Source: an uncultured virus (IMG/VR IMGVR_UViG_3300035698_035306) (lineage: Duplodnaviria > Heunggongvirae > Uroviricota > Caudoviricetes). From it: DNA of 64,000 nt. The position numbers and the translations under genes are program-made. The stretch lies in IMG/VR virus record IMGVR_UViG_3300035698_035306; one strand, given 5' to 3'. Positions within the stretch are counted from its first letter, which is position 1, and every line of letters starts with the position of its first letter. This document shows, piece by piece, positions 2,608 to 33,500 of the stretch. Below the pieces are notes generated by a model. That model saw only the letters and a list, made by a program, of their open reading frames with translations. It did not search any database and had not been told where the DNA came from.

Positions 2608-2670
2608 TTTTATTTGTTTTTAAATTACTATACTAAAGTATCAAAAATATTTGACACTCCAAAGTATTTG

Positions 2671-3306: not shown

Positions 3307-3307
3307 T

Positions 3308-4183: not shown

Positions 4184-4219
4184 GTCTTTATGTTTTAATG
4201 TTTAGTCAAATATAACAAA

Positions 4220-5322: not shown

Positions 5323-5323
5323 T

Positions 5324-6496
5324 TTATAAAGGTTTGTAGTCTATCATACGTTTAACTATGTCAATAGTTTCAGCGTTTCCAGTATGCTTTCCAGGTATGT
5401 CAGAAAGTTTAATTACATTCTCTTTATTAATCTTAAATAGTTTAATTACCATGTTAAGTGCTTTAACTCCAGGGAAATCATTCGTGTAGTTTGTTCCTAT
5501 ACCAAATGAACAGCCAATTCGACCATCGACGTAGTCTTGAATTTCTAATGCTGTAGTTGGATTTAAACCATCAGAGAAAACAATTGTCTTTGATTTTGGG
5601 TCAATTCCAAGTGATTCGTAGTGTGCAATTATCTTATCAGTAAATACTTTTGCATCTCCTGAGTCGTGGCGTACACCATCAAACAACTTAGCGTATTTCA
5701 TATCGAAGTCATTTAAGAATGTGTCTAGACCAAATGTGTCTGTCAATGCTATACCTAAATTTCCTTTATATGTTTCAACCCAAAGTTCTAATGCATGTTT
5801 ATTAGCGTGAGCATAACCAAGTACAGCAGCTACTCCTGATACCCATTCGTGAGCGAATGTTCCAATTGCTTTTGTATTATGATTGATTGCCATTTCAACG
5901 TTTGAAGAACCAATGAATGATTTTCCACCGTAGTTTTTAGCTATTCCAACTACTCTATCGTGGTTGGTGTATGAATAACGTCTACGTGTACCGAAGTCAA
6001 CGTTGGCAAGGTTATGCATATTAAAGTTTGAGAATTTCTTTTGGTCAAGGCCTTCTATGTAACCGATAGATTCTTTTGGCTCAATACCGTTTATCTTAAA
6101 GAATATCTCAGATATCTCAGACATCAGAATAACTTCCCAAAGTATAGTTCTGTACCAGTAACCTTGTATAATTATCTTTAATTCACCTTCATCTTCTTCA
6201 ATGATTATAACTTCAGAAGGATTAAATTTATATCCTGCTAGAAAATCGAAGAACATATTAGGTAAGAATGGGCATTTCACTTGGAATGCTTCTCGCTCCT
6301 CTCTTGACAGTGTAATTTCCCCAAATGTGTCAATACGTTTTCTTAATTCGTCAGCAACTCCAGACATGTCACGTGTCTTATCTCTTAAAACAAACTCATA
6401 TCTAACCTTTGCATCAGGGAAGTGTTGCATTACTGCCCACATCATAGTGAATTTATAAAGGTCGTTGTCTAAGATACTTCTCTTTTTTAAGTTCAT
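5324..6496 (-). CDS. pncB: nicotinate phosphoribosyltransferase
   Basis: DNDLYKFTM, DFGTRRR, GTFAHEW, GVRHDSGD, FSDGL, FGIGT, KLSD-PGK. Confidence 0.96.
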   Translation of the reverse strand: MNLKKRSILDNDLYKFTMMWAVMQHFPDAKVRYEFVLRDKTRDMSGVADELRKRIDTFGEITLSREEREAFQVKCPFLPNMFFDFLAGYKFNPSEVIIIEEDEGELKIIIQGYWYRTILWEVILMSEISEIFFKINGIEPKESIGYIEGLDQKKFSNFNMHNLANVDFGTRRRYSYTNHDRVVGIAKNYGGKSFIGSSNVEMAINHNTKAIGTFAHEWVSGVAAVLGYAHANKHALELWVETYKGNLGIALTDTFGLDTFLNDFDMKYAKLFDGVRHDSGDAKVFTDKIIAHYESLGIDPKSKTIVFSDGLNPTTALEIQDYVDGRIGCSFGIGTNYTNDFPGVKALNMVIKLFKINKENVIKLSDIPGKHTGNAETIDIVKRMIDYKPL

Positions 6497-8941: not shown

Positions 8942-9463
8942 TTACTTAGCTAACATATCAGCTGCACAACTTGCAGCCCATGCTTCTGGTTTAGTTCTAC
9001 ACTTAAAGCCAAGTGATTTAATGTAACCGACTCCTGCGTCATGAGCTACATTACTTTGATGCCTGTCATTAGGGTTTAAATCAAGGTCAACAGTTATAAT
9101 TCTCTTACCAACTGCAGGTAGAATTTCAAGTGCAGTGTCTGCTGAATCTTGAACCTCTTTCCACATTCTTGGGAAAAGTGTATCTTTCCAGAACTTATCG
9201 TTCTTTGTGTTTGCTTTCGCTTTATCGTAATCTTCTTTCTTAGCTCTGATTTTCTTTTCAGAATATCTTTGAAAGATAATATGGCCGCCGTTTCCAGGAT
9301 GCACAAAGCAAATTACGGTTACGAATTTAGTATGTCTGCGATGATTTAAGCTATCACTACCTACATAAATGTCAACTTCAGGGTTTTCCCGAATGTAATC
9401 TTTTACGTATTGTTGAACATCGTCAATAATACGTCCACCGAATTGTTTAAATTGTTTCATCAT
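8942..9463 (-). CDS. RNase H-like YkuK/DUF458 family protein
   Basis: IYVGSDS, R-W-EV, DLDLN, KPEAWAASCAAD; start MMKQF with GGAGG RBS (ORF-track extension overlaps a tRNA). Confidence 0.8.
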   Translation of the reverse strand: MMKQFKQFGGRIIDDVQQYVKDYIRENPEVDIYVGSDSLNHRRHTKFVTVICFVHPGNGGHIIFQRYSEKKIRAKKEDYDKAKANTKNDKFWKDTLFPRMWKEVQDSADTALEILPAVGKRIITVDLDLNPNDRHQSNVAHDAGVGYIKSLGFKCRTKPEAWAASCAADMLAK

Positions 9464-9481
9464 TATTCCTCCATCTTTTTG

Positions 9482-9565
9482 TGACCATAGAGAGACTCGA
9501 ACTCTCAAGCTTTTTAGAGCGGCAGATTCTTAGTCTGCTGTGTTTGCCAATTTCACCATACGGCC
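9482..9565 (-). tRNA. tRNA-Leu(AAG)
   Basis: GCAGA-CTAAGAA-TCTGC, long variable arm. Confidence 0.85.
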
Positions 9566-9584
9566 ATGGTTGTTTATTTATTTG

Positions 9585-9660
9585 TACCCCTGGTCGGATT
9601 CGAACCGACACAATCTCCTGGGTCTAAACCAGGCGCCTTTACCATTTTAACCACAGGGGT
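9585..9660 (-). tRNA. tRNA-Leu(TAG)
   Basis: Cloverleaf, loop TTTAGAC. Confidence 0.9.
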
Positions 9661-9685
9661 AGTTATTGTATTGCATCTATTGTTG

Positions 9686-9759
9686 TATTCCTAGTGAGAT
9701 TCGAACTCACACTGAACGGGGCTTAAACCCGATGCCTCTGCCAGTTGGGCTACAGGAAC
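9686..9759 (-). tRNA. tRNA-Leu(TAA)
   Basis: Loop TTTAAGC. Confidence 0.88.
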
Positions 9760-9764
9760 ATGTT

Positions 9765-10079
9765 CTATTTATATCTTTCAAGAACTCTTGCTCTTTTTTC
9801 AGGAGACATTTTACAAAGAACGTTTTCTCCTGGTGGTCGTGAACTTCTTTCACCACCATAAGTAATTAAAAATTCGTATTCACCATTTTCTTCAAAATGT
9901 TTAGATTTAATCTTCTGCCAATATTCGTGACTTAATAAATGCACTTCAATTGTTTTGTGATATTCATTATAGGTTAGATTATATCTTTCACCTACAATAA
10001 CAAACTCAACAAGCTTCATATTATAACCTTGTTCTTCTATTTGCTTTAATACATTAGTTATTATATTTGTTGTTTCCAT
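9765..10079 (-). CDS. hypothetical protein within tRNA operon
   Basis: ORF track. Confidence 0.6.
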   Translation of the reverse strand: METTNIITNVLKQIEEQGYNMKLVEFVIVGERYNLTYNEYHKTIEVHLLSHEYWQKIKSKHFEENGEYEFLITYGGERSSRPPGENVLCKMSPEKRARVLERYK

Positions 10080-10222
10080 TATCTTTAGTATTTAGCTACC
10101 AGAGTAGCAATTTATATTACTTTTCAGTGATTTTAGCTACCAGGGTAGCTATGTTTATAATAGACCATATATGAGTCATTTCTGTAATATTTCAGTGAAA
10201 TTGCTCATATATGAGTCATTTG

Positions 10223-10308
10223 TAGCCCGAATCGGAATCGAACCGACACGTCCATTACTGAACACTGGATTTTAAGTCCAGCGCGTCTACCAGTTTCACC
10301 ACCGGGCC
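10223..10308 (-). tRNA. tRNA-Leu(TAA)
   Basis: Loop CTTAAAA, long variable arm. Confidence 0.92.
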
Positions 10309-10321
10309 GTCTTTATTATTG

Positions 10322-10396
10322 AGCAGTATAACAGATTCGAACTGTCACCTTCTGGGTGGAAGCCAGATATGCTTTGCCGTTAAACACCAATACTGC
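10322..10396 (-). tRNA. tRNA-Gly(TCC)
   Basis: Loop CTTCCAC. Confidence 0.88.
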
Positions 10397-10439
10397 AGTT
10401 GTCAAGGACAAAATGTCTTATAGAATGTCCTTGATACTG

Positions 10440-10512
10440 AGCGAAATGTGGGAATCGAACCCCGTCCTCTGGTTGGAAACCAGATGCTTTCAGCCATTAA
10501 GCTACATCTCGC
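10440..10512 (-). tRNA. tRNA-Gly(TCC)
   Basis: Loop TTTCCAA. Confidence 0.88.
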
Positions 10513-10584
10513 ATGGAGTTGCTAACTTCTAACAAATGAATAAATTCACTTTAAAGATGGGGAGTTAAAAGCCAACAACAGTTG

Positions 10585-10657
10585 AGCAGAATACCAGATT
10601 CGAACTGGCGTTTCCAGATTGGCAACCTGGTGCACTAACCAACTATGCTAATTCTGC
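10585..10657 (-). tRNA. tRNA-Gly(GCC)
   Basis: Loop TTGCCAA. Confidence 0.9.
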
Positions 10658-10662
10658 GTTTG

Positions 10663-10734
10663 CTCCTCGACAAGGGGTCGAACCTTGGACCTACTGGTTA
10701 ACAGCCAGTTGCTCTACCACTGAGCTATCGAGGA
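10663..10734 (-). tRNA. tRNA-Asn(GTT)
   Basis: Loop CTGTTAA. Confidence 0.93.
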
Positions 10735-10738
10735 ATGT

Positions 10739-10918
10739 TTACATTAACATGAACTTAAGCTTTAATTTAGCTTTGTCATATTTACTTTTAGTTTTTTCAA
10801 ACTCTTCATTTGATACATTGTTCTTATAATTCGAACTCTGTACTCTTTTCTTTAAAAATTCAACATATAATTTATGTTCTTCCAAAGAATTACGTTCCAC
10901 CTTTTTCTTTGTTTTCAT
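10739..10918 (-). CDS. small basic protein, 59 aa (MKTKKKVERNSLEEHKLYVEFLKKR...)
   Basis: Translated by hand; fills the gap between two tRNA-Asn genes. Confidence 0.6.
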   Translation of the reverse strand: MKTKKKVERNSLEEHKLYVEFLKKRVQSSNYKNNVSNEEFEKTKSKYDKAKLKLKFMLM

Positions 10919-10992
10919 GAGGGCCGGGAGAATTTCGAAATCTCGACATCTAGGTTAACGGCCTAGTGCTCTGCCTCTGAGCTACCAACCCA
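10919..10992 (-). tRNA. tRNA-Asn(GTT)
   Basis: Loop CCGTTAA. Confidence 0.82.
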
Positions 10993-10996
10993 TGTG

Positions 10997-11069
10997 AGCT
11001 TACGAACGGGGTCGAACCGATGACCGGCTCATTACAAGTGAGCTGCTCTACCAACTGAGCTACGCAAGC
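10997..11069 (-). tRNA. tRNA-Thr(TGT)
   Basis: Loop CTTGTAA. Confidence 0.92.
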
Positions 11070-11160
11070 ATTTTAAAAAGTGTAATAAGATGCACAAAAT
11101 ACATTAAATCCTGTCAGGTTTAATATAAATGAATCCCGTTGTGCATCATAATACACCTTG

Positions 11161-11233
11161 AGCTGTGAATGAGATTTGAACTCATGACCTTTTCCGTACC
11201 AGGGAAACGCTCTTCCAACTGAGCTATCAAAGC
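11161..11233 (-). tRNA. tRNA-Thr(GGT)
   Basis: Loop CTGGTAC. Confidence 0.9.
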
Positions 11234-11237
11234 AAGT

Positions 11238-11361
11238 ATACTACTAAAAGTTGTTTGTGACTGTGTTCAAGACAGTTGCCTAACCACTTGGCTATCTACG
11301 CTATTAGCGTGGAATTGGATTCGAACCAATGTTACTAGATTTTAGTTATTCTAAGTAGTAT
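11238..11361 (-). ncRNA. Y-RNA-like ncRNA: ACUUAGAA stem enclosing a circularly permuted tRNA (T arm, looped acceptor stem, D arm, anticodon arm)
   Basis: ATACTACTTAGAATAACTAAAA...ATTGGTTCGAATCCAAT TCCACGC-TAATA-GCGTAGA TAGCCAAGTGGTTAGGC ACTGT-CTTGAAC-ACAGT...TTTTAGTAGTAT. Confidence 0.75.
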
Positions 11362-11364
11362 TTG

Positions 11365-11436
11365 CCGGCAACGGGAGATTCGAACTCCAAACTTCGGCGT
11401 GACAGGCCGATATGTTACCATTACACTACGCTGCCG
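11365..11436 (-). tRNA. tRNA-Asp(GTC)
   Basis: Loop CTGTCAC. Confidence 0.9.
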
Positions 11437-11453
11437 TTGTAGTATATTATTAG

Positions 11454-11537
11454 AGCAGATAGTTGGATTCGAACCAACGTGGAATTACTTCAGCGGATTT
11501 GCAATCCGCCGCCTTCGACCTCTCGACCATATCTGCA
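11454..11537 (-). tRNA. tRNA-Cys(GCA) with long variable arm
   Basis: Loop TTGCAAA, U73. Confidence 0.85.
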
Positions 11538-11624
11538 TTTTAATAAAGCTGTCGGTTATCTTTTTTAAAAACTCAGCAGGAACCTTGTTTATAAAAAATC
11601 CTGATGATAACCTTTCAGCGTTAG

Positions 11625-11696
11625 TGGAGCTTACGGTAATCGAAACCGTGTCTTCTGGGTGCAAGCCAAATGTAATAGCCACTATACGAAAGCCCC
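11625..11696 (-). tRNA. tRNA-Ala(TGC)
   Basis: GGGGCTT acceptor with G3.U70, loop CTTGCAC. Confidence 0.9.
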
Positions 11697-11741
11697 GTTT
11701 TAGTTTTTTGATTGTCCAATAGAAACTAATAAACTATTTGG

Positions 11742-11810
11742 CGGTACCGAAGGGTATCGAACCCTCTCATCCAGCAGAGACAGTGCCGGCGCTTACCATC
11801 AGCCGATACC
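11742..11810 (-). tRNA. tRNA-Asp(GTC), atypical
   Basis: CCGGCA-CTGTCTC-TGCTGG; short D region. Confidence 0.65.
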
Positions 11811-11816
11811 AAATAG

Positions 11817-11898
11817 AGGAGGATAACGGAATCGAACCGTCTGCACGAATGCAGGCCTAGCGTTCAAAACTAGTTAAGCACCTGGCTTGCTATCCTCC
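11817..11898 (-). tRNA. tRNA-Ser(TGA)
   Basis: Loop TTTGAAC, long variable arm. Confidence 0.8.
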
Positions 11899-11911
11899 AT
11901 GGATAGTTTTG

Positions 11912-11996
11912 AGGAGAATACTGGAATTGAACCAGTGCAACGATTAAGTTGGACTCGGTTTAGCAAACCGGCACATTACCACTCTGTCAATTCTCC
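11912..11996 (-). tRNA. tRNA-Ser(GCT)
   Basis: Loop TTGCTAA, long variable arm. Confidence 0.88.
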
Positions 11997-12055
11997 ATAG
12001 ATACAATACGTCAAAGAACTATTTGTTCTAATTTTTTTTGCTTAGGTTTATTCCT

Positions 12056-12093
12056 AAAAAAAGTCTGGTTAAAAATTAATTTAGCCAGACTTT
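12056..12093 (-). terminator. attenuator terminator 1
   Basis: AAAGTCTGGCTAAA-loop-TTTAACCAGACT+T7. Confidence 0.85.
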
Positions 12094-12116
12094 AAAAATA
12101 TTGTTGAATTACTTCA

Positions 12117-12236
12117 TCATATTCGAATATCTGGCTTCACGTTCCCTGCATCAGCATTACAATCACTGCCTAAGGCTAGCGATAACGTCGATGTCAACGT
12201 GTTTAAGAGATTTGATATGTTAGTAATTGTCTTCAT
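12117..12236 (-). promoter_or_regulatory. leader peptide 1 MKTITNISNLLNTLTSTLSLALGSDCNADAGNVKPDIRI
   Basis: Codons 8-32 encode only S,N,L,T,A,G,D,C, the tRNAs downstream; AGCCAGA antiterminator. Confidence 0.85.
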
Positions 12237-12336
12237 TTGTTTGTTGTTTATATATTGTTGTTTGTTTGATGTTCTATACTAAAGTATCACAAAGTTTCGC
12301 AATAATTAAGTTTATTTCTGTTTTAATTACGTTTTT

Positions 12337-12594
12337 TTATTTAACGTATTGTTTAGCAGCACGATTAGCATCAGACAGTCTATCCCATGCGGTATGCAGT
12401 GCTCTTTCGAGTTCTCCTAAACCTATATATGAGATTTTAGATGAACTGTTTATTAAATCTTTGTGCATTTGTTCTGTTTCGGCTAGATATTTCTTCAGGA
12501 AATTAAGATGCTTTTCTACTTCCTTGTTACTTTTAATAAATTTCTTATCATCACCTTCATTTACAAACTCGTCAAATGTTTTAATATTTTCCAT
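12337..12594 (-). CDS. putative internal head protein (MENIKTFDEFVNE)
   Basis: N-terminal motif; TATATA upstream. Confidence 0.65.
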   Translation of the reverse strand: MENIKTFDEFVNEGDDKKFIKSNKEVEKHLNFLKKYLAETEQMHKDLINSSSKISYIGLGELERALHTAWDRLSDANRAAKQYVK

Positions 12595-12631
12595 AATCTA
12601 ATTACTTTTTATAACTAGATTATATATTGTG

Positions 12632-12704
12632 TTGGCCCTACCGGAATCGAACCGATGACCTTTTCGTTATGAGCGAACTGCTCTACCAACTGAGCTAAGG
12701 GCCA
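12632..12704 (-). tRNA. tRNA-Ile2(CAT), probable lysidine AUA reader
   Basis: GGCCCT acceptor, loop CTCATAA, elongator-type body. Confidence 0.75.
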
Positions 12705-12772
12705 ATGTCGCAATGTACTCCCCACATTAAAAGTTTATCTAAAGAGCTTTCCTTTAAATCTGGCATTGCGTG

Positions 12773-12844
12773 TAGCCCCAAGGAGAATCGAACTCCTATT
12801 TACAGGTTGAAAACCTGGCGTCCTAACCGTTAGACGATGGGGCC
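12773..12844 (-). tRNA. tRNA-Glu(TTC)
   Basis: Loop TTTTCAA. Confidence 0.9.
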
Positions 12845-12905
12845 ATGTATATTAACTAAGAAGGTTGGTTAAACCTTGAACCATAATGTCATAGTTAATA
12901 AATGG

Positions 12906-12979
12906 TTGGTCTGGAGGGGCTCGAACCCTCGACCCGATGATTAAGAGTCACCTACTCTGCCAACTGAGCTACAGACCAA
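12906..12979 (-). tRNA. tRNA-Lys(CTT)
   Basis: Loop CTCTTAA. Confidence 0.88.
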
Positions 12980-12989
12980 TGTATTATAG

Positions 12990-13062
12990 TAACCCATACG
13001 AGATTCGAACTCGTGACTTCAGATTGAAGGTCTGACGGCTTAACCAGCTTGCCGAATGGGCT
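12990..13062 (-). tRNA. tRNA-Glu(TTC)
   Basis: Loop CCTTCAA. Confidence 0.85.
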
Positions 13063-13067
13063 ATTTG

Positions 13068-13135
13068 TAACCATACAAGGAATCGAACCTCAATTTCTGC
13101 TGCAGACAGCGTCCTAACATTGGACGATATGATTA
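13068..13135 (-). ncRNA. Glu-like tRNA mimic with shortened anticodon arm
   Basis: Intact D and T arms; GCTGTCTGCAGC in place of a 7-nt anticodon loop. Confidence 0.55.
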
Positions 13136-13140
13136 AATAG

Positions 13141-13208
13141 AATTTCACTAATAGTTAACGTGTCAAATTAAAAGTTTGGTGTTTGTTTTTAGTTTTCTAA
13201 GTGAAATT
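13141..13208 (-). ncRNA. ACUUAGAA-stem ncRNA
   Basis: AATTTCACTTAGAAAACTAA...TTAGTGAAATT. Confidence 0.7.
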
Positions 13209-13212
13209 ATAG

Positions 13213-13299
13213 TAACCCCGCTGGGACTCGAACCCAGGACTCCTCGGTTAAAAGCCGAGTGCTCTACACCTTTCGGATATCCAACTGAGCTACGGAGTT
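13213..13299 (-). tRNA. tRNA-Lys(TTT) with a hairpin inserted in the D loop
   Basis: Loop CTTTTAA; D loop contains ATATCC-GAAA-GGTGT. Confidence 0.85.
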
Positions 13300-13337
13300 A
13301 TTATTAGTTATCAATATTTTAAAGAACTTGTTTTAGT

Positions 13338-13410
13338 AGCGCATACGAGAATCGAACTCGTGTTCCCACCGTGAAAGGGTGATGTCCTTAAACCACTAGA
13401 CGAATGCGCC
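13338..13410 (-). tRNA. tRNA-Glu(TTC)
   Basis: Loop CTTTCAC. Confidence 0.88.
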
Positions 13411-13416
13411 ATTTAG

Positions 13417-13489
13417 TTACTCATCTCAGGTTCGAACTGAGGACTCCCTGGTTAAAAGCCAGGTGCTCTACCAACTGAGCTAATGAGTA
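13417..13489 (-). tRNA. tRNA-Lys(TTT)
   Basis: Loop CTTTTAA. Confidence 0.9.
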
Positions 13490-13536
13490 ATCTATTTTAA
13501 AATCAAAATTTTAATGAACATGTAAGGTATAAACCT

Positions 13537-13572
13537 AAAAAAAGCCTGAAGAGTAATTCTTCAGGCTTGTTA
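13537..13572 (-). terminator. attenuator terminator 2
   Basis: TAACAAGCCTGAAGA-ATTAC-TCTTCAGGC+T7. Confidence 0.88.
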
Positions 13573-13593
13573 AATATTGTTTGACGCTAGATG

Positions 13594-13683
13594 TTAATCT
13601 GCGTGTTTATCTAACAAGCCTGCAGGTTCCTTCTCCTTTTTTATAGAAGTTGTTATTGCTGATATGTTAGTTAAGTTTCTCAT
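13594..13683 (-). promoter_or_regulatory. leader peptide 2 MRNLTNISAITTSIKKEKEPAGLLDKHAD
   Basis: ATA AAA AAG GAG AAG GAA control codons; CAGGCTTGTTA antiterminator. Confidence 0.88.
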
Positions 13684-13780
13684 TGTGTTTATTATTATCG
13701 TTGTTTATATATTGTTGTTTGTTTGATTGTTCTATACTAAAGTAAGCATTTGTTTCGCAATACCAAAGTTTATTTCTGAT

Positions 13781-14629
13781 TTAAATCAGTTTTTTTAATT
13801 TGTCTTTTAATTTATCAACCTCTAGCTTTAATCTAGCTGCAGATGCTTTTTTACCATCTCGTAAATCTTTCCACCTTTGTATAGATGTTTTCTCAGATTC
13901 GATACGTTTTTTATTATAAGCTGATTCGTCGTAGTTATAATTCTTATCTGCACCTCTTGATACAATGACGTCCCATTCAGGGTAATCTAACCAACCTGAG
14001 AATTTATCAGGATTCTCGTTTTTCTTTTTAATCAATAAAGCTCTTATATCAGGATTCTTCATCTTCCTGTCTTCTGAGTACTCATCCTTTAATACCTTTA
14101 TGCGAGATTCTAATCTTATTATGTCTTGCTGAATCTTATCGCCTTTACTTAGTTTCTTAAGTCTAGCTTTTAAAACTGCCTGTACCGTACTATTACCAGT
14201 CTTAGGTAAAGATGTACTTGTTAGATATCTATAATGAGGTCTCTGTACTAACCCCATTGCAATTATCACTTGTGTTTGTATCTGATAGGTCTTACCATCT
14301 CTTTTTACACTTGCTGACATAGAAAGTGAACCTTTAGTATTTTTTCTAAAATCTACTTCAACTAATTTATCAGAAGATTGAGTATATTTCTCAATTGACT
14401 TTATTAAATCCAACGTCGCAACTAATCTAGTTTGCTGTTCATCAAATTTAGACCAAGATGAAGCTTCTCCTTTTAAAGCTTTTTCTTCAATCCAAGCTCT
14501 TGTTTTCGCGATAACATCAAGAATTACTGGTTCAGCTTCTAATAATATTTTACTTAAAAGAGGATTGCCTTTAAACTGGTTCTTCTCATTTAAAAACTCG
14601 CTATATGATTCTGCTATGAATTTTGTCAT
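13781..14629 (-). CDS. putative internal head protein (MTKFIAESYSEFLNE)
   Basis: N-terminal motif. Confidence 0.6.
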   Translation of the reverse strand: MTKFIAESYSEFLNEKNQFKGNPLLSKILLEAEPVILDVIAKTRAWIEEKALKGEASSWSKFDEQQTRLVATLDLIKSIEKYTQSSDKLVEVDFRKNTKGSLSMSASVKRDGKTYQIQTQVIIAMGLVQRPHYRYLTSTSLPKTGNSTVQAVLKARLKKLSKGDKIQQDIIRLESRIKVLKDEYSEDRKMKNPDIRALLIKKKNENPDKFSGWLDYPEWDVIVSRGADKNYNYDESAYNKKRIESEKTSIQRWKDLRDGKKASAARLKLEVDKLKDKLKKLI

Positions 14630-15282: not shown

Positions 15283-15302
15283 TGTATGTAGTATATATAA
15301 AA

Positions 15303-15613
15303 AATAGACGAGGTAATTAGGCTCCTGTTACGTTTTTCAACGTCAACAACATTTGTCTATTCTCCTCAACCCGACTATTATAGACCGTTGCTAAATCTAA
15401 GTCTGTTTGAGTTTCACTCCGGTAGTGAAAACGATTGATTATGGGTCTTTCGGGGTTACTGGTTTGTAAGGTGGTACTATTAACCCTTTTTCCTTTTGTC
15501 TTCCAGTTACCTGGTTTTGGTAACCTTACCTAACAGCTTTAACTATCAATCTCCTACCTGCACTTTAGTGGCCAAATTTCCTCTCCGTAGAGCGTTGTTG
15601 TCACTCGTCTATT
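15303..15613 (-). ncRNA. rnpB: RNase P RNA (compact)
   Basis: P1 AATAGACGAG/CTCGTCTATT; CR-I GAGGAAATTTGGC; P2 CAACAAC/GTTGTTG; CR-IV TAGACAAATG; CR-V AACAGGAGCCTAATTA. Confidence 0.8.
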
Positions 15614-16077
15614 TCTATTCCTCTATCCAATCTGTGTAAAATTCTTAAGGTTCTACCATTTGGATGGATATACTTATTATTATTTAAAAATTCTTTATTA
15701 TCTAATTGTAAAAATTCATTTGCATATGTTCCGATTGCACCACTTCTTGAAATACCAGCTGCACAATGTACAATTAACAAATTACATTTTTCTTTATCAA
15801 TACTTTCTAAGAACTTAATTAATTTCTTACCTTGCTCAAATGAAAAACCCTTAGCAGTATATGTTGCGGTTTCCAATTCAGCTTTCTCAATATCATCAAA
15901 ATCGAAATTCAAAACATTCACATGGTCTTCTTTAAACCAATGTTGGTAACCTTGTTCAAATGTTTCCACTACAGAAATTAAAGCTAACTTTGTTTTCTCT
16001 TCAATGTTACCATCATTAAGATTATGTTTCTTCATTGTTTCATCGAACTGCCTCTGTGGTACTATTAAAATCTTCAT
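15601..16077 (-). CDS. tyrosine/dual-specificity phosphatase-like protein
   Basis: F-DD acid loop and VHCAAGISRS P-loop. Confidence 0.85.
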   Translation of the reverse strand: MKILIVPQRQFDETMKKHNLNDGNIEEKTKLALISVVETFEQGYQHWFKEDHVNVLNFDFDDIEKAELETATYTAKGFSFEQGKKLIKFLESIDKEKCNLLIVHCAAGISRSGAIGTYANEFLQLDNKEFLNNNKYIHPNGRTLRILHRLDRGIEIDE

Positions 16078-16263: not shown

Positions 16264-16331
16264 TATTTCTATTTATTATTAATTACAAGATAAAAGTAAC
16301 AAAAAATATTCAGAAGCCAAAGTATTAACCT

Positions 16332-16359
16332 AAAAAAAGCGGTCCGAAGACCGCTTTTT
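16332..16359 (-). terminator. intrinsic terminator after the TROVE-like gene
   Basis: AAAAGCGGTC-TTCG-GACCGCTTTTTTT. Confidence 0.85.
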
Positions 16360-16376: not shown

Positions 16377-18305
16377 TTAAGCTATTACAGAGTAACGCTT
16401 GTCATCGTAAATACTCCAAAGTTCATCTTCTGGGTTTACACTTCCTGTCTTAATTCCGCGAAGAATTTGAGAAAGTACACCTTCACTGAAGCCGCTTACT
16501 AATAGAATATTTGGTATACCTTTAATTTGCTGTGCAAATGAATCAGGTAGTCTTTGAATACCCCAGAACACCATAAGTGGGTTCCATCCGATACTGTATG
16601 CAAGTTCAAGGGCCTCCTTTGGAGACTTACCTGTATTGTTTTCCATATCAGTAATGTAAAGTAATGCGTTTGGTAAATCTTCAACATGCATCTTATTGTC
16701 TTTCACTAATTTTACAAAGTGTTGGATTGAAGCGAACATATTTGTTGAACTAATATCACCTGGGTTTGAACGAGTTATGCTTTCAAAGTTCTCAGTAAAA
16801 GTTTTCTTTTCACTTAATATGTTATAAGCATTCACCTTCTTAGTATAAGCGTTAGCTGCAACATAAGAGTTTGGTGCTTCATTTACATATTTAGACTTAC
16901 CAATAATTTTGAAGTCTGAACTGAACCAGCCGAAAGTATTTCTAAATTCTTGAACTGGGTTTCTTGTACTGAACACAATTGCTAATGATGCTGCTACTTG
17001 CCAGCATGTTAAATGACTAAATTTATTATCAGCTACGCTTGAGTTACCCCAATAGCTTCTGGTAATACTTGAACTCATTGAACCACTACCATCAATGATT
17101 GGGAATACGTTCGCAACAAGGTCCATCTTTTCAATCATAGATTGGTAAGTGTTGTTAACCATTTGCTTAGTAGTATTTCCTTTAAGCATACTTGACATTA
17201 AATCTACAGTCTGTACTCCTGTTGACTTAACTTTGAATTGCTTCATTAATTTCTCCTTAGCTTCTACGTCATCGTTAGATGCAGCTTCTCTAAGTTGGTC
17301 GGCAATATTTTCTTGACCATTTTCCCATTCAATGAAGTAATTACCAAGTTCTCCCCATTTCTCTTTCGCAACTAACTTGTCATCATCTTTGAAACATACT
17401 GTCTTAGACACCATGAATCTTTGACCAGTTGTAAGTTTGTTAAGGAACTCAATGAAGTCAGACTTAGCCATAGTTAAAACTGACTTAGAACTGATAGCTT
17501 GTTCAGCTGTATCTTGTAGTTTTCTAAAGTTCTTGTATTGTTCAACAGACCAATCCATTCTCTTACAGAATCCTAAAATCCAAGTGTTAACTAATTTTTG
17601 CTTGTCAAGTGTAATAGTTTGCTTATCTCTTGGGTAAGAAACTACATCACCAGTCTTCACTGTAATCTTTTCTGTACCATTTTTAACAAGTACGCCATTA
17701 AGCTTTACCCAAGCTTTACCTTCAGGTAATGTCCATTTGAAAGAATCAACATCTTTTCTTGACTTAATCACTTTCTTAGTAGTTCTAGACTTGCCAGACA
17801 TGTACTTAGGTAAGTGCTTCGCAATAAGGTTTACATTCTTTCCTGCTAGAATTTGACTAGCTAAGTAGTCATATACTACAGCTTCATTAGGAAACAGAAC
17901 TTCTGTCTTAATAAGCTTACCAGTATTTCTATCAGTAGTGTTTTGATAAAACATAAGGTTGTCAAGAACTGTAAATTCTACGATAGCTCTAATGTTTCTT
18001 GCAAAACTTTCTGGCATTTTAGTACTCCACCATCTTAAGATACTTCTAAAAGTCTCTCTTTCTTGGGCACCACCCGTTGGTGATTTAATACCAAGTTCAT
18101 CAAGTAAGTTGTGTTGTCTACTGATGTCTCCAACGTGTAGCATCACTCTTTCAAGCATGTTTACCATTTCATTCTTATTACATTCCACAAATGACTTGTT
18201 AAGCATTGCGTGAATATCTCTATCATTACCACCTTTGGTGGTTCTAAGAGCTTGTAACACAGTTAATGTTACTGGAAATTCTTTTCTGTTTGTTTCGTTT
18301 TTCAT
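16377..18305 (-). CDS. DUF2828/TROVE(Ro60)-like helical + vWA domain protein
   Basis: GGAQERETFR (DUF2828-type GGxGERxxFR), AKHLPK, vWA MIDAS IDGSGSM, STN, ITDME, FW, VSGFS. Confidence 0.72.
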   Translation of the reverse strand: MKNETNRKEFPVTLTVLQALRTTKGGNDRDIHAMLNKSFVECNKNEMVNMLERVMLHVGDISRQHNLLDELGIKSPTGGAQERETFRSILRWWSTKMPESFARNIRAIVEFTVLDNLMFYQNTTDRNTGKLIKTEVLFPNEAVVYDYLASQILAGKNVNLIAKHLPKYMSGKSRTTKKVIKSRKDVDSFKWTLPEGKAWVKLNGVLVKNGTEKITVKTGDVVSYPRDKQTITLDKQKLVNTWILGFCKRMDWSVEQYKNFRKLQDTAEQAISSKSVLTMAKSDFIEFLNKLTTGQRFMVSKTVCFKDDDKLVAKEKWGELGNYFIEWENGQENIADQLREAASNDDVEAKEKLMKQFKVKSTGVQTVDLMSSMLKGNTTKQMVNNTYQSMIEKMDLVANVFPIIDGSGSMSSSITRSYWGNSSVADNKFSHLTCWQVAASLAIVFSTRNPVQEFRNTFGWFSSDFKIIGKSKYVNEAPNSYVAANAYTKKVNAYNILSEKKTFTENFESITRSNPGDISSTNMFASIQHFVKLVKDNKMHVEDLPNALLYITDMENNTGKSPKEALELAYSIGWNPLMVFWGIQRLPDSFAQQIKGIPNILLVSGFSEGVLSQILRGIKTGSVNPEDELWSIYDDKRYSVIA

Positions 18306-18320: not shown

Positions 18321-18429
18321 ATCTAACTAAAAAATTTTAATGCCGGGATTGAACCAGCGACCTTTTTGTGATTAGCAAAATGCTCTACCAACTGAGCGAA
18401 TTAAATTGTTTAGTTGTTCTAAGTTAGAT
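18321..18429 (-). ncRNA. Y-RNA-like ncRNA: ACUUAGAA stem extending a tRNA-like cloverleaf
   Basis: ATCTAACTTAGAACAACTAAA..GCTCAGTTGGTAGAGC..TTTTG-CTAATCA-CAAAA..GCTGGTTCAATCCCGGC..TTTAGTTAGAT. Confidence 0.75.
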
Positions 18430-18433
18430 ATTA

Positions 18434-18570
18434 GGTGGCGAGGGGTGGATTCTAACCACCGATATCAATCGTATGAAAATTGTGCATTAACTTTAAACTA
18501 ATGTTTATGTTTTCTAAGTGGTATACTTGTAAAACCACTATAAGTGTTTGTTTTACTGTGCTACCTCGCC
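18434..18570 (-). ncRNA. tRNA-like RNA (CAT loop) with the ACUUAGAA module inserted in the D loop
   Basis: GGCGAGG/CCTCGCC acceptor, GGTGG-TTAGAAT-CCACC T arm, insert TAGTGG..CCACTTAGAAAAC. Confidence 0.7.
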
Positions 18571-18634
18571 ATAATTAAAAATGAATTTCTATGCACCTTA
18601 CTGGTCTATGAACATTCTAACGGTCCCGTATATC

Positions 18635-19711: not shown

Positions 19712-19748
19712 AAAAAAATCCAATCGGCTATTTGCTGACTGGATTTTA
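19712..19748 (-). terminator. attenuator terminator 3
   Basis: AAAATCCAGTCAGC-AAATA-GCCGATTGGA+T7. Confidence 0.85.
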
Positions 19749-19797
19749 AAATTTCTTTGGGTTCTATATGTTGATAAAAAACTTTCTTAAATCCAAT

Positions 19798-19884
19798 CTA
19801 TGCGCAAATAATACTTTCCACTACGATGACAGCTACTGTTTCAGTAGAGCGTATAGGGACGATATTTTTTAAATTGCGTTGCAT
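19798..19884 (-). promoter_or_regulatory. leader peptide 3 MQRNLKNIVPIRSTETVAVIVVESIICA
   Basis: V/I-rich; GATTGGATTT antiterminator overlapping the stop codon. Confidence 0.85.
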
Positions 19885-21010: not shown

Positions 21011-21112
21011 ATTTTTCTAATATTTTAAAGAACGTGTGTTATAATTTTCTAAGATAAAAGTACAACATTTTTTCGCAATAAAAAAGTTTATTTTGAAAAA
21101 GTTAAAAATTTA

Positions 21113-21820: not shown

Positions 21821-21906
21821 ATGTTTTTTCAATAATTTAAAGAACTATGTTATAAATTTCTAAGATAAAAGTACAACATTTAATCGCAATAAAAAAGTTT
21901 ATTTTG

Positions 21907-25470: not shown

Positions 25471-25506
25471 AAAAAAAGTCCAACTTCATAAATGAGGTTG
25501 GACTTC
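25471..25506 (-). terminator. attenuator terminator 4
   Basis: AAGTCCAACCTCAT-TT-ATGAAGTTGGAC+T7. Confidence 0.85.
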
Positions 25507-25530
25507 GTATTTAAAATTATTTATAACTTT

Positions 25531-25608
25531 CTAATACCCTATACTAACCTCCTGAGTGACTCTTGGTCTCGGAAAAAATCTAAATGATATGTTAGTAGTT
25601 GTGTTCAT
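25531..25608 (-). promoter_or_regulatory. leader peptide 4 MNTTTNISFRFFPRPRVTQEVSIGY
   Basis: TTT AGA TTT TTT CCG AGA CCA AGA control codons; GAGGTT antiterminator. Confidence 0.9.
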
Positions 25609-25695
25609 GTTAATGTTTATTATATATTGTCTATTATTAATTGTTCTATACTAAAGTAAGACAAAGTTTCGCTATTTGAAAGTATTTTTCTGTTT

Positions 25696-31931: not shown

Positions 31932-31973
31932 AAAAAAAGCCTAAAGAACATTTTGAGAATGTAGCTTTAGGCT
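31932..31973 (-). terminator. attenuator terminator 5
   Basis: AGCCTAAAG..ACATT-CTCAA-AATGT..CTTTAGGC+T7. Confidence 0.85.
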
Positions 31974-32010
31974 GTTATATTTGAAAGGAGGTGCTGTGAT
32001 TTATCTACCG

Positions 32011-32088
32011 TCAATTTAACATTATACTACACTCTTGGTTTTGATACCAATAATGATGAAGTGCGTTATGTATGTTTAAATTGTTCAT
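32011..32088 (-). promoter_or_regulatory. leader peptide 5 MNNLNIHNALHHYWYQNQECSIMLN
   Basis: CAT CAT TAT TGG TAT control codons; AGAGTGTAGT antiterminator. Confidence 0.9.
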
Positions 32089-32178
32089 TGTTTCTATTTG
32101 TTAAGATATTATATATCTATGTTTGTTTGTTATTCTATACTAAAGTAAGATAAAGTTTCGCAATTTGAAAGCTTTTTC

Positions 32179-33293: not shown

Positions 33294-33325
33294 AAAAAAA
33301 GGCTTAAGAAGTAAATCTTAAGCCA
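33294..33325 (-). terminator. attenuator terminator 6
   Basis: GGCTTAAGA-TTTACT-TCTTAAGCC+T7. Confidence 0.88.
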
Positions 33326-33352
33326 TCGTTTATGTAAAATATTTTATATCAA

Positions 33353-33424
33353 CTATGAACCTAAGAATTTCCCAACAGTTTGCTGTTGTTGCATTTGCAT
33401 AGTATATTGATAAGTTCTAGTCAT
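33353..33424 (-). promoter_or_regulatory. leader peptide 6 MTRTYQYTMQMQQQQTVGKFLGS
   Basis: ATG CAA ATG CAA CAA CAG CAA control codons; TCTTAGGTT antiterminator. Confidence 0.9.
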
Positions 33425-33444
33425 TGTTTCTATTTGTTTGAGTA

Positions 33445-33500
33445 TTATATATTGTTGTTTGTTTGATTGTTCTATACTAAAGTAAGATAAAGTTTCGCAA
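33445..33500 (-). promoter_or_regulatory. tandem promoter cassette TTGCGA-N-TACTTTAGTATAG followed by ATATA(T)A; also at ~12250-12303, 13706-13760, 25620-25672, 32110-32163
   Basis: Near-identical sequence upstream of five of the six leaders. Confidence 0.75.

What the first reader, a model, noticed from the sequence alone, without database searches (positions are those of the whole stretch)
12056..12236. Attenuator 1: an eight-amino-acid sensor ahead of 17 tRNAs
Codons 8-32 (SNLLNTLTSTLSLALGSDCNADAGN) are 25 consecutive codons drawn only from the 8 amino acids of the downstream tRNAs (Ser x2, Asp x2, Ala, Cys, Thr x2, Asn x2, Gly x3, Leu x4). Several synonymous codons are sampled (CTC, TTA, TTG, CTA; TCA, TCG, AGT). 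AGCCAGA near the ORF end pairs with TCTGGCT in the terminator. Classical multivalent attenuators (thr, ilv) sense two or three amino acids.
Basis: partly seen in the sequence, partly recalled or inferred. Interest (0 to 1): 0.85.

Follow-up and report, generated by a model that had tools for sequence, protein, structure and literature searches.

The report
Codon-matched attenuators gating phage tRNA clusters
A phage from a salt-lake metagenome puts a tiny test gene, written in the codons of the tRNAs that follow it, plus a switchable transcription stop in front of each of six tRNA gene clusters, so it probably makes each set of tRNAs only when ribosomes read those codons slowly.

Summary
The 39-codon ORF (12236..12117, minus strand) has 25 consecutive codons drawn only from the eight amino acids of the 17 tRNA genes that follow. 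The chance of such a run is 2.4e-8.

It is one of six modules of the same design in the window: promoter-like box, short ORF, hairpin plus T7, then a tRNA cluster. Each ORF carries a run of codons for its own cluster:
- QQQQ before Gln x3
- HHYWY before Tyr/His/Trp
- FRFFPRPR before Phe/Arg/Pro
- VIVV before Val/Ile
- KKEKE before Lys/Glu

The true leader-to-cluster assignment is the single best of 720 permutations. Each ORF's 3' end can pair with the terminator's 5' arm (Fisher p 3.6e-5 against shuffles). A ribosome-position scan places the switch just after the codon run in five of six modules.

Five related phage contigs (46-58% identity in a marker protein) have differently sorted tRNA clusters, and their leaders track those clusters.

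This scan has noted similar attenuators on other DNA. Five literature searches found no published case. There is no RNA or experimental evidence.

The parts
12272..12320 (-). Promoter-like box of module M_1. Near-identical copies sit at five modules and also before ordinary genes.
   Evidence: The exact 15-mer lies at 12272-12286. The same box stands before a lipoprotein-like gene in L001.
12117..12236 (-). Leader ORF of M_1: 39 codons plus TGA, peptide MKTITNISNLLNTLTSTLSLALGSDCNADAGNVKPDIRI. It has an A-rich 5' UTR rich in CAA and no Shine-Dalgarno sequence.
12141..12215 (-). Codons 8-32: 25 consecutive codons for the eight amino acids of the downstream tRNAs. They sample 12 of the 13 downstream anticodon types; the 13th, Thr(ggt), is sampled at codon 5.
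   Evidence: (P 2.4e-8).
12128..12137 (-). 5' strand of the antiterminator (AAGCCAGATA, codons 34-37). It pairs with 12091-12082.
   Evidence: -13.7 kcal/mol, p 0.016 against 500 shuffles.
12056..12090 (-). Intrinsic terminator: hairpin at 12090-12063 (-13.4 kcal/mol) followed by T7 at 12062-12056.
9481..11996 (-). The 17 gated tRNA genes: Ser x2, Asp x2, Ala, Cys, Thr x2, Asn x2, Gly x3, Leu x4. A 104-codon ORF at 9765-10079 sits inside the array.
13537..13744 (-). Module M_KE. Leader 13683..13594 (MRNLTNISAITTSIKKEKEPAGLLDKHAD), hairpin 13566-13544 plus T7. It precedes Lys, Glu, Ser, Glu, Lys, Glu, Met.
   Evidence: (p 0.008).
19712..19884 (-). Module M_VI. Leader 19884..19798 (MQRNLKNIVPIRSTETVAVIVVESIICA), hairpin 19743-19719 plus T7, then 20 nt to Val x2 and Ile. 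It lacks the shared promoter box and lies just downstream of the GOLLD-like RNA.
   Evidence: (p 0.004).
25471..25658 (-). Module M_FRP. Leader 25608..25531 (MNTTTNISFRFFPRPRVTQEVSIGY), hairpin 25503-25478 plus T7. A 236-codon HNH-like ORF follows, then Phe, Arg(tct) and Pro x3.
   Evidence: The antiterminator on its own is weak (p 0.34).
31932..32147 (-). Module M_YHW. Leader 32088..32011 (MNNLNIHNALHHYWYQNQECSIMLN), hairpin 31972-31939 plus T7. It precedes Tyr x2, His and Trp.
   Evidence: This module has the weakest antiterminator (p 0.16; no switch; 12 of 200 shuffles reach it).
33294..33484 (-). Module M_Gln. Leader 33424..33353 (MTRTYQYTMQMQQQQTVGKFLGS), hairpin 33324-33301 plus T7, then 17 nt to Gln x3.
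   Evidence: (p 0.03).

Best explanation
The ORF at 12236..12117 is the leader peptide of a ribosome-mediated transcription attenuator that gates the 17 tRNA genes behind it. It is one of six such attenuators in this phage's tRNA island.

Proposed mechanism:
1. Transcription starts at the conserved box about 50 nt upstream, and a ribosome begins translating the leader.
2. If aminoacyl-tRNA for any codon in the 25-codon run is scarce, the ribosome stalls inside the run. The segment AAGCCAGAU (codons 34-37) stays free and pairs with the terminator's 5' arm as that arm emerges. The terminator cannot form, and RNA polymerase runs on into the tRNA genes.
3. If decoding is fast, the ribosome reaches codons 32-40 or the double TGA and covers that segment. 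The hairpin plus T7 forms, and transcription stops 59 nt before the first tRNA.

The outcome would be demand-driven negative feedback on tRNA supply, kept separate for each of six tRNA groups that together cover 19 of the 20 amino acids.

Shown here: the anatomy, the codon statistics, the alternative pairings, the repetition within the genome and the co-variation in relatives.

Inferred: that the ORF is translated, that the terminator works, the direction of the response, and that the natural trigger is tRNA scarcity (for example from tRNA-cleaving host defence or host shut-off) rather than amino-acid starvation.
For: (1) Codon match.
- M_1 has a run of 25 own-set codons, P 2.4e-8. The other five modules give P 1.1e-5, 6.9e-5, 2.6e-7, 6.0e-3 and 3.2e-3.
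- In the 6x6 leader-by-cluster matrix, only the true assignment reaches the observed score: 1 of 720 permutations.
- The codons fit the anticodons: AGA x3 with Arg(tct), TTT x3 with Phe(gaa), CAT/TAT/TGG with His/Tyr/Trp, AAA and AAG with Lys(ttt) and Lys(ctt).
- M_1 samples 13 of 13 downstream anticodon types. Random 38-codon strings do so in 175 of 200,000 draws.

(2) Terminators. All six are hairpins of -10.7 to -20.2 kcal/mol, each followed by exactly T7. The hairpin starts 26-28 nt after the stop codon in four modules, and 38 and 54 nt after it in the other two.

(3) Antiterminators. Leader 3' ends pair with the terminator 5' arms with p 0.03, 0.16, 0.34, 0.004, 0.008 and 0.016 against 500 dinucleotide shuffles each; Fisher 3.6e-5. 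For the position-aware switch score, 1, 12, 9, 0, 16 and 5 of 200 shuffles reach the observed value; Fisher 2.0e-5.

(4) Ribosome scan, folding only the RNA downstream of the ribosome. In M_1 the 5' arm is sequestered at 98% for A-site codons 2-30, 81% at codon 31, and 13-22% from codon 32 to the stop. The drop falls within one to three codons of the end of the own-codon run in M_Gln, M_FRP, M_VI and M_1, and inside the run in M_KE.

(5) No room for a separate promoter. Only 17 nt (M_Gln) and 20 nt (M_VI) separate the T-run from the first tRNA, so those tRNAs can be made only by read-through.

(6) Relatives. Five contigs with 46-58% identity in the 642-aa marker carry the same module, including the shared N-terminal MKTxINIS-type motif, and their leaders track their own clusters:
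- MTTIINIFEFNVIED.. before Asp/Glu/Ile/Phe
- MKNTNKNMTRVAKATTKGG.. before Thr/Lys/Asn/Arg/Val/Ala/Met/Gly (all 8 present, run of 18-23, P 7e-6 to 1e-7)
- MKTLINISLSSLYLLQSLRQSC..LPLHQYW.. before Pro/Gln/(Tyr)/Trp/Ser/His/Leu/Cys/Arg
- MKTQINITTSYSLRSLCTSLRL.. before Ser/Thr/Leu/Arg/Cys (run of 11, P 2e-6)
The true assignment is the best of 24 permutations. All 7 relatives' modules tested have antiterminator duplexes with p 0.002-0.018.
Against: - No RNA data. No RNA run holds this DNA, so translation, termination and read-through are all unobserved.
- Thermodynamics alone do not decide the switch. When 4 U of the tail are included, the full terminator is in the minimum-energy fold in every ribosome state tried for M_1, M_YHW and M_KE. 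The switch must therefore be kinetic, as in classical attenuators.
- The untranslated state is ambiguous. Without the tail, the no-ribosome state of M_1 favours the antiterminator (terminator 6%). A classical 1:2 anti-antiterminator is not established.
- Two modules have weak antiterminators on their own: M_YHW (p 0.16) and M_FRP (p 0.34). M_YHW shows no switch.
- Two whole-peptide counts are not significant: M_KE (8 of 28, P 0.45) and the relatives' DEIF leader (9 of 24, P 0.15, run P 0.07).
- M_1 has a 59-nt spacer containing the repeated motif GTTCTTTNNNNTATTG. It occurs 8 times on the minus strand, mostly 8-18 nt before tRNAs. If this is a promoter, the tRNAs would also be expressed independently of the attenuator.
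- The conserved TAGGTTTA after the T-runs could overlap a promoter element.
- M_1's codon choice is very atypical for this phage (log-likelihood at or below the observed value in 6 of 100,000 synonymous redraws). That fits deliberately slow codons or RNA-structure constraints, but it is also what an untranslated frame would show.
- Not every relative has the module. None was found in the held stretches of L010, L012, L013 or the distant L019.
- Five of the window's 43 tRNAs lie outside any module (Met x2, the odd tRNA at 22418, Arg(acg) and the cta suppressor). Ile(aat) at 18407 lies downstream of the M_VI cluster but is not counted in it.
Confidence: 0.82

Rival explanations
1. The switch is real but senses general translation capacity (ribosome availability or overall elongation speed) rather than specific tRNAs. 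On this reading the codon runs are an evolutionary by-product or only a fine-tuning feature.
For: In the scans, a ribosome anywhere in codons 2-30 of M_1, or no ribosome at all, leaves the antiterminator free. Any failure to translate would therefore give read-through. The conserved N-terminal motif is unrelated to the downstream tRNAs.
Against: It does not explain why each of six leaders, and the four leader types in relatives, is enriched for exactly its own cluster's amino acids (1 of 720 and 1 of 24 permutations). It also does not explain why leaders changed composition when the clusters were sorted differently.
Confidence: 0.1
2. The short ORFs are translated and codon-matched, but they act through something other than intrinsic termination. 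For example, ribosome stalling could control RNase processing or stability of the precursor, or Rho access, with the hairpins plus T7 serving as ordinary constitutive terminators or processing signals.
For: The same type of T7-AGG terminator also ends ordinary genes (16325-16338 and 37683-37696). At equilibrium the terminator is favoured in all states. A repeated motif of unknown role precedes many tRNAs.
Against: Complementarity between leader 3' ends and the terminator 5' arms is significant in the window and in 7 of 7 relatives' modules. A constitutive terminator 17-20 nt before tRNA genes with no room for a promoter would silence them.
Confidence: 0.05
3. It is an ordinary small phage gene (or a chance open frame) followed by the terminator of the upstream operon, and the resemblance to the tRNA set is coincidence or low-complexity composition.
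For: Phages have many small ORFs. The peptide resembles a weak signal or lipoprotein-like sequence (..LALGSDC..). Its codon usage is atypical. It has no homologue in PHROGs.
Against: The run probability is 2.4e-8. The same design appears five more times in the window and in five related contigs, each matched to its own tRNAs.
Confidence: 0.02

Closest known systems
Leader-peptide transcription attenuators of amino-acid operons: trpL, hisL, pheL, leuL, and the multivalent thrL (Thr/Ile) and ilvL (Leu/Val/Ile). Named from my own knowledge. The search listing shows PMC1183508 on this mechanism; I saw only its abstract line.
   Same: Promoter, short ORF with clustered regulatory codons, intrinsic terminator, a competing antiterminator whose upstream strand is covered by a ribosome that finishes the ORF, and kinetic competition in which the terminator is the more stable fold.
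   Different: The regulated genes are tRNA genes, not biosynthetic enzymes. The element is in a phage. Six parallel units split 19 amino acids between them. One leader reads eight amino acids and 13 anticodon types, where the classical ones read one to three. No clear 1:2 anti-antiterminator was found. No Shine-Dalgarno sequence is present.
T-box riboswitches (named from my own knowledge)
   Same: A terminator/antiterminator decision that depends on the state of a specific tRNA and feeds back on the translation supply chain.
   Different: T-boxes bind uncharged tRNA directly, need no translation, and control aminoacyl-tRNA synthetase, transporter and biosynthesis genes. No T-box match was found here.
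Ribosome-stalling leaders of resistance genes (erm, cat, vmlR, msrD, bmrCD type). Search listing: PMC9226507, PMC10314930, PMC4191407; titles and abstract lines only.
   Same: A stalled ribosome on a short upstream ORF remodels downstream RNA and relieves attenuation.
   Different: In those systems the stall is caused by a drug and the nascent peptide, not by codon supply. They show no codon-to-product correspondence.
Earlier notes of this scan on other phage genomes (e1-2978539, e1-5359011, e1-5368003, e1-5830176, e1-6003387, e1-5684675, e1-5824790, e1-5379356)
   Same: A short ORF plus terminator switch placed in front of phage tRNA clusters, some of them codon-matched.
   Different: Those are AI notes on other DNA and were not checked here. 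As summarised there, they describe one or two modules per genome. This window has six amino-acid-partitioned modules plus co-variation in relatives.

Membership tests
Ribosome-mediated (leader-peptide) transcription attenuator | Short ORF in the transcribed leader, between the promoter and the regulated genes | tested here: met
   ORFs of 23-39 codons lie about 35-50 nt after a conserved promoter-like box in five modules; M_VI has a different upstream region. The promoter and translation themselves are inferred.
Ribosome-mediated (leader-peptide) transcription attenuator | Clustered regulatory codons that correspond to the product of the regulated genes | tested here: met
   Run P values range from 6e-3 to 2.4e-8 in the six modules. 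The true assignment is 1 of 720 permutations. Relatives give 1 of 24.
Ribosome-mediated (leader-peptide) transcription attenuator | Intrinsic terminator between the leader ORF and the first regulated gene | tested here: met
   Six of six modules have a hairpin of -10.7 to -20.2 kcal/mol followed by T7.
Ribosome-mediated (leader-peptide) transcription attenuator | Alternative antiterminator pairing that includes the terminator's 5' arm | tested here: met
   Fisher p 3.6e-5 over six modules. Four are individually at or below 0.03 and two are weak, at 0.16 and 0.34. Seven of seven relatives' modules give p at or below 0.018.
Ribosome-mediated (leader-peptide) transcription antiterminator switch position | A ribosome stalled at the regulatory codons leaves the antiterminator free, and a ribosome at the end of the ORF blocks it | tested here: met
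   The in-silico scan shows this in five of six modules and not in M_YHW. Against shuffles, Fisher p 2.0e-5.
Ribosome-mediated (leader-peptide) transcription attenuator | 1:2 anti-antiterminator or pause hairpin that gives termination when the leader is not translated | tested here: inconclusive
   The minimum-energy fold of 12260-12040 has a long intra-ORF hairpin plus the terminator (z -4.36). The ensemble without the U tail favours the antiterminator, and with the U tail it favours the terminator.
Ribosome-mediated (leader-peptide) transcription attenuator | Read-through rises when the cognate charged tRNA is limiting | not testable with these tools
   No RNA run holds this DNA. The host is unknown.
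Classical amino-acid operon attenuators (trp/his/thr/ilv) | The regulated genes encode amino-acid biosynthesis enzymes | tested here: not met
   The downstream genes are tRNAs. This works like the class but is not a member of those families.
T-box riboswitch | Match to the T-box leader model (specifier loop and T-box sequence) | tested here: not met
   No T-box match was listed in 9000-14000 at E up to 1 or in the whole window at E up to 0.05.

The most novel reading that the evidence does not exclude
A family of uncultured phages runs a modular, demand-driven controller of tRNA supply. Their complete tRNA set is sorted by amino acid into clusters, and each cluster sits behind its own codon-matched leader-peptide attenuator. 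In this phage there are six, reading 19 of the 20 amino acids. Any shortfall in decoding particular codons would then switch on exactly the matching phage tRNA genes. Such shortfalls could come from host anticodon nucleases, host shut-off or codon-usage mismatch. The RNA ligase and Tpt1 genes sit in the same island. This would be the first attenuation system whose regulated product is the sensed molecule itself, and a natural multi-channel sensor of the tRNA pool.
Probability: 0.6. Interest if true: 0.93.

Novelty: new variant of a known kind. Interest (0 to 1): 0.9.

Why it matters
tRNA genes in bacteria and phages are generally thought to be controlled at promoters and by processing. Leader-peptide attenuation is the textbook control for amino-acid operons.

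Here that logic is applied to tRNA genes, and the sensed quantity (decoding speed at given codons) is directly supplied by the regulated genes. That gives the shortest possible feedback loop.

It would explain why large phage tRNA arrays are sorted by amino acid. It suggests how phages balance the cost of carrying more than 40 tRNA genes. It also links tRNA arrays to defence and counter-defence around tRNA cleavage.

The modules are compact (about 200 nt), come in many specificities, and could serve as ready-made codon-specific reporters of tRNA availability.

The comparative series, in which different tRNA groupings go with different leaders, makes the hypothesis directly testable.

Tried and rejected
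Relatives by single proteins. Searches of viral contigs with the 85-aa, 282-aa and 358-aa proteins and the RNA ligase found none. tblastn of the 642-aa protein against phage records found none. Megablast of 11000-14000 gave only a 54-nt tRNA-Ser match.

Promoter-box pattern. It gave 0 hits in viral contigs. In metagenome contigs it gave 9 loci that are identical copies of the same phage, so they carry no covariation information.

Genome contigs. One 2.2-kb contig holding only the marker gene.

Sequencing runs. No RNA holder is listed. Laying contigs of four DNA runs showed the same phage with 0 differences in the long pieces. The only changes near M_1 are a 3-nt deletion at 12252 (one contig) and a 1-nt insertion behind 12269 (one contig), both in the 5' UTR, so there is no informative variation.

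Whole genome. None is held. This scan has no earlier notes on this genome or on look-alikes.

Equilibrium folding as a discriminator. Rejected, because the answer flips depending on whether the A:U extension of the terminator is included.

Synonymous sampling of every anticodon as independent evidence. Not significant given the peptide (11.8% of redraws).

Unusual stop codons of leaders. The window's leaders use TAG x3, TGA x2 and TAA x1, against TAA in 35 of 37 genes. I considered this a possible slow-release feature. Six of the eight relatives' leaders listed end in TAA, so it is not general.

Sigma-70 consensus scan. It did not call the conserved box. I leave the promoter type open.

A leader for the Met x2 group (21369-21207) and for Arg(acg) at 15283. 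None was recognised.

Identities of low-scoring tRNA-like genes (13068-13134, 31516-31601, 24655-24738, 23459-23554). These stayed ambiguous and were left out of the amino-acid sets.
Full report
**What is at the coordinates**

On the minus strand, a 39-codon ORF runs from 12236 to 12117 and encodes MKTITNISNLLNTLTSTLSLALGSDCNADAGNVKPDIRI. It stops at TGA, and a second TGA follows directly.

Twenty-six nt after the stop lies a hairpin at 12090-12063 (-13.4 kcal/mol), followed by T7 at 12062-12056. Fifty-nine nt further on, the first of 17 tRNA genes begins. The array runs from 11996 to 9481.

ARAGORN at default settings of the 17. At a lowered threshold it adds Asp(gtc) at 11739-11810 and Ser(tga) at 11816-11898. 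The same run also produced obviously false intron-bearing calls, which I ignored.

Codons 8-32 are 25 consecutive codons for these eight amino acids. AGCCAGA (12136-12130) is complementary to TCTGGCT (12089-12083) in the terminator's 5' arm.

**Is it more than chance?**

- In 37 long ORFs of the window (10,431 codons), the eight amino acids make up 45.6% of codons. P(run of at least 25 in 38 codons) is 2.4e-8.
- 29 of 38 codons are in the set, against 17.3 expected (P 1.1e-4).
- The leader samples all 13 anticodon types of the 17 tRNAs. Twelve fall inside the run, and Thr(ggt) is sampled by ACT at codon 5. Random 38-codon strings drawn from phage codon usage do this in 175 of 200,000 draws.
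- Given the peptide, synonymous redraws cover all 13 types in 11,793 of 100,000 cases, so that detail adds nothing on its own.
- The actual codon choice is far rarer than phage usage predicts. CTC is 2% of Leu codons, TCG 3% of Ser, GGG 3% of Gly, GCC 4% of Ala and ACG 5% of Thr. The log-likelihood is at or below the observed value in 6 of 100,000 redraws.

**The decisive point: it is not alone**

Reading the regions upstream of the other tRNA groups showed six modules of one design on the minus strand.

| Module | Leader (ATG..stop) | Own-codon motif | Downstream tRNAs |
|---|---|---|---|
| M_Gln | 33424..33353 | ..QMQQQQ.. | Gln x3 |
| M_YHW | 32088..32011 | ..HHYWY.. | Tyr x2, His, Trp |
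| M_FRP | 25608..25531 | ..FRFFPRPR.. | Phe, Arg(tct), Pro x3, behind an HNH-like ORF |
| M_VI | 19884..19798 | ..VAVIVVESII.. | Val x2, Ile |
| M_KE | 13683..13594 | ..KKEKE.. | Lys, Glu, Ser, Glu, Lys, Glu, Met |
| M_1 | 12236..12117 | the finding | 17 tRNAs |

- Five modules share a nearly identical promoter-like box and an A-rich 5' UTR rich in CAA, with no Shine-Dalgarno sequence. The same box precedes ordinary genes (2626, 35812, and a lipoprotein-like gene in L001), so it is a general promoter of this phage.
- Three leaders share the opening ..TNIS.
- All six end in a hairpin of -10.7 to -20.2 kcal/mol plus exactly T7.
- The probabilities of the own-codon runs are 1.1e-5, 6.9e-5, 2.6e-7, 6.0e-3, 3.2e-3 and 2.4e-8.
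- In a 6x6 matrix of leaders against cluster sets, the true assignment is the only one of 720 permutations that reaches the observed score.
- On whole-peptide counts, M_KE is not significant (8 of 28, P 0.45), because Lys and Glu are common. Its signal is the run of five.
- Together the six sets cover 19 amino acids. Met is the exception.
- 37 of the 43 default ARAGORN tRNAs lie in the clusters counted for the six modules. Ile(aat) at 18407 also lies downstream of the M_VI cluster but was not counted in it. The other five lie outside any module: the cta suppressor at 1392, Arg(acg) at 15283, the odd tRNA at 22418, and Met x2.

**RNA switch**

For each module I took the best duplex between the leader (ATG up to 3 nt before the hairpin) and the terminator's 5' arm, and compared it with 500 dinucleotide shuffles.

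| Module | Duplex energy (kcal/mol) | p against shuffles |
|---|---|---|
| M_Gln | -9.6 | 0.030 |
| M_YHW | -8.5 | 0.16 |
| M_FRP | -8.5 | 0.34 |
| M_VI | -12.7 | 0.004 |
| M_KE | -14.9 | 0.008 |
| M_1 | -13.7 | 0.016 |

The Fisher combined p is 3.6e-5. The upstream strand always lies just after the own-codon run, between codon 19 and a few nt past the stop codon. Its sequence differs from module to module in step with the terminator stem.

I then treated the ribosome as a barrier covering -15 to +12 around the first A-site nucleotide. I folded only the RNA downstream of it, up to the terminator loop, which is the state just before the 3' arm is made.

- In M_1 the 5' arm is paired at 98% for A-site codons 2-30, 81% at codon 31, and 13-22% from codon 32 to the stop.
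- The same step occurs after codon 16 in M_Gln (97-99% falling to 28% or less) and after codon 16 in M_FRP, its last own codon (64% falling to 11-18%).
- In M_VI it occurs at codons 26-28 (99% falling to 1%). In M_KE it occurs within KKEKE (72% falling to 0%).
- M_YHW shows no step for the outer stem.
- A position-aware score is reached by 1, 12, 9, 0, 16 and 5 of 200 shuffles; Fisher 2.0e-5.

Caveats on the folding:
- At equilibrium the result depends on the A:U extension of the terminator. Without the U tail, M_1's terminator probability is 0-54% for codons 2-30 and 99% from codon 31.
- With four U's included, the full terminator is in the minimum-energy fold in every state tried.
- As in classical attenuators, the switch must therefore be kinetic. 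The untranslated state is not settled.

**Must the terminators be conditional?**

The T-run is only 17 nt (M_Gln) and 20 nt (M_VI) from the first tRNA. That is too short for a separate promoter, so those tRNAs can be made only by read-through.

M_1 has 59 nt of spacer, and it contains GTTCTTTGACGTATTG. This is one of 8 minus-strand copies of a motif that mostly sits 8-18 nt before tRNAs (9 matches at up to one mismatch, against 1.1 expected). Its role is unknown. If it is a promoter, it weakens M_1's control.

**Relatives**

Single-protein and pattern searches found only identical copies of this phage.

The 642-aa protein at 16377-18305 has 99 homologues at 100-32% identity. A profile of 32 of them retrieved 14 viral contigs, eight of which show 46-59% identity (L010-L017).

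An automatic scan looked for a hairpin of -7 kcal/mol or stronger, followed by at least T6, with a tRNA within 1.2 kb and an ORF of 10-60 codons ending nearby. It found modules in L011, L014, L015, L016 and L017. None was found in L010 (which holds a single tRNA), L012 or L013. A relaxed look also found none in L012, L013 or the distant L019.

The relatives' clusters are sorted differently, and the leaders follow them.

| Leader | Downstream cluster | Statistics |
|---|---|---|
| MTTIINIFEFNVIED.. | Asp, Glu, Ile, Phe | Weak: 9 of 24, P 0.15 |
| MKNTNKNMTRVAKATTKGG.. | Thr, Lys x2, Asn, Arg, Val, Ala, Met, Gly x2 | All eight present; runs of 18 and 23; P 7e-6 and 1e-7 |
| MKTLINISLSSLYLLQSLRQSC..LPLHQYW.. 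| Pro, Gln, (Tyr), Trp, Ser, His, Ser, Leu, Leu, Cys, Arg | 25-28 of 43-44; P 1e-6 to 2e-5 |
| MKTQINITTSYSLRSLCTSLRL.. | Ser, Thr, Leu, Arg, Cys.. | Run of 11; P 2e-6 |

The true assignment is the best of 24 permutations.

All 7 relatives' modules tested have a leader-3'-end to terminator-5'-arm duplex with p 0.002-0.018. The leader-to-hairpin gap is 22-30 nt, as in the window.

Ser, Leu and Cys travel with Asp/Ala/Thr/Asn/Gly in this phage. In the relatives they travel with Pro/Gln/Trp/His/Arg, and the leaders differ accordingly. This is a natural swap experiment.

**Mechanism and comparison**

The best explanation is ribosome-mediated attenuation. Slow decoding of the run keeps the ribosome upstream, the antiterminator forms, and the tRNA genes are transcribed. 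Fast decoding brings the ribosome over the antiterminator strand, and the terminator forms. The result is negative feedback on tRNA supply, cluster by cluster.

It works like trpL, hisL, thrL and ilvL. It is not a member of those families, because the regulated genes are tRNAs. It is not a T-box either (no match).

The island also carries an Rnl1-like RNA ligase, a Tpt1-family protein and NAD-salvage genes. That is compatible with a role against tRNA damage, but this link is inference.

**Novelty**

Five full-text searches listed no paper describing leader-peptide control of tRNA genes. I saw only listings and abstract lines, and read no paper. This scan's own notebook holds 33 notes of similar attenuators before phage tRNA clusters in other genomes. 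They are AI notes and were not checked here. None concerns this genome.

**Verdict**

This is a new variant of a known kind of control, shown here in unusually complete form, with six channels and co-variation across relatives. It has not been tested experimentally.

Noticed in passing
window 20041-20515 (-): Match to GOLLD RNA (RF02032) at 129 bits, E 1e-33, below the gathering score of 150, with a tRNA-like match inside it (20377-20446). It lies directly upstream of module M_VI, which lacks the shared promoter box.
   Followed up: no
window 12004-12019, 13312-13327, 21018-21033, 21830-21845, 22321-22336, 22673-22688, 24635-24650, 31914-31929 (all -): Repeated motif GTTCTTTNNNNTATTG. There are 9 matches at up to one mismatch, 8 of them on the minus strand, against 1.1 expected by chance. 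Most lie 8-18 nt upstream of a tRNA or an unannotated RNA. It could be a processing signal, a second promoter or a cassette flank.
   Followed up: partly
window 1392-1464 (-); also L010 14027: A high-scoring tRNA with anticodon CTA, an amber suppressor type (74.7 bits). Genes in the window end in TAA in 35 of 37 cases, yet three of the six leaders end in TAG. Reading through TAG would carry ribosomes into the terminator in M_FRP (14 more codons) and M_VI (35 more codons).
   Followed up: partly
window 22420-22717 (-) and 15290-15620 (-): Two stretches of about 300 nt with no ORF, comparatively rich in G+C, placed in front of tRNAs. The first follows a copy of the promoter box at 22703-22717. 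The second precedes Arg(acg). No Rfam match at E up to 0.05. They are candidate unknown structured RNAs.
   Followed up: no
window 21556-21744 (-), about 18420-18575 (-), 22346-22418 (-), 13212-13299 (-): Unusual tRNA-like genes. Two have acceptor and T arms separated by insertions of about 110-150 nt, which may be introns. One has a 6-nt anticodon loop, and one may have an 8-nt loop.
   Followed up: partly
window 1477-6496 and 25696-29789 (-): Auxiliary genes interleaved with the tRNA clusters: an Rnl1-like RNA ligase, a Tpt1/KptA-family protein, NAMPT-like, NAD synthetase, Nudix, NadR-like (adenylyltransferase plus kinase), a PnuC transporter, and a TonB-dependent receptor with plug domain.
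   Followed up: no
window leaders and L011, L014-L017 leaders: A conserved N-terminal peptide motif (MKTITNIS, MRNLTNIS, MNTTTNIS here; MKTLINIS, MKTQINIT, MTTIINIF in relatives). It is unrelated to the downstream tRNAs. It may reflect common descent of the modules or a functional start sequence.
   Followed up: partly
window 16325-16338, 37683-37696 (-) and all six modules: This phage's terminators share the tail T7-AGG-TTTA, including those that end ordinary genes. The meaning of the conserved bases after the T-run is unknown.
   Followed up: no
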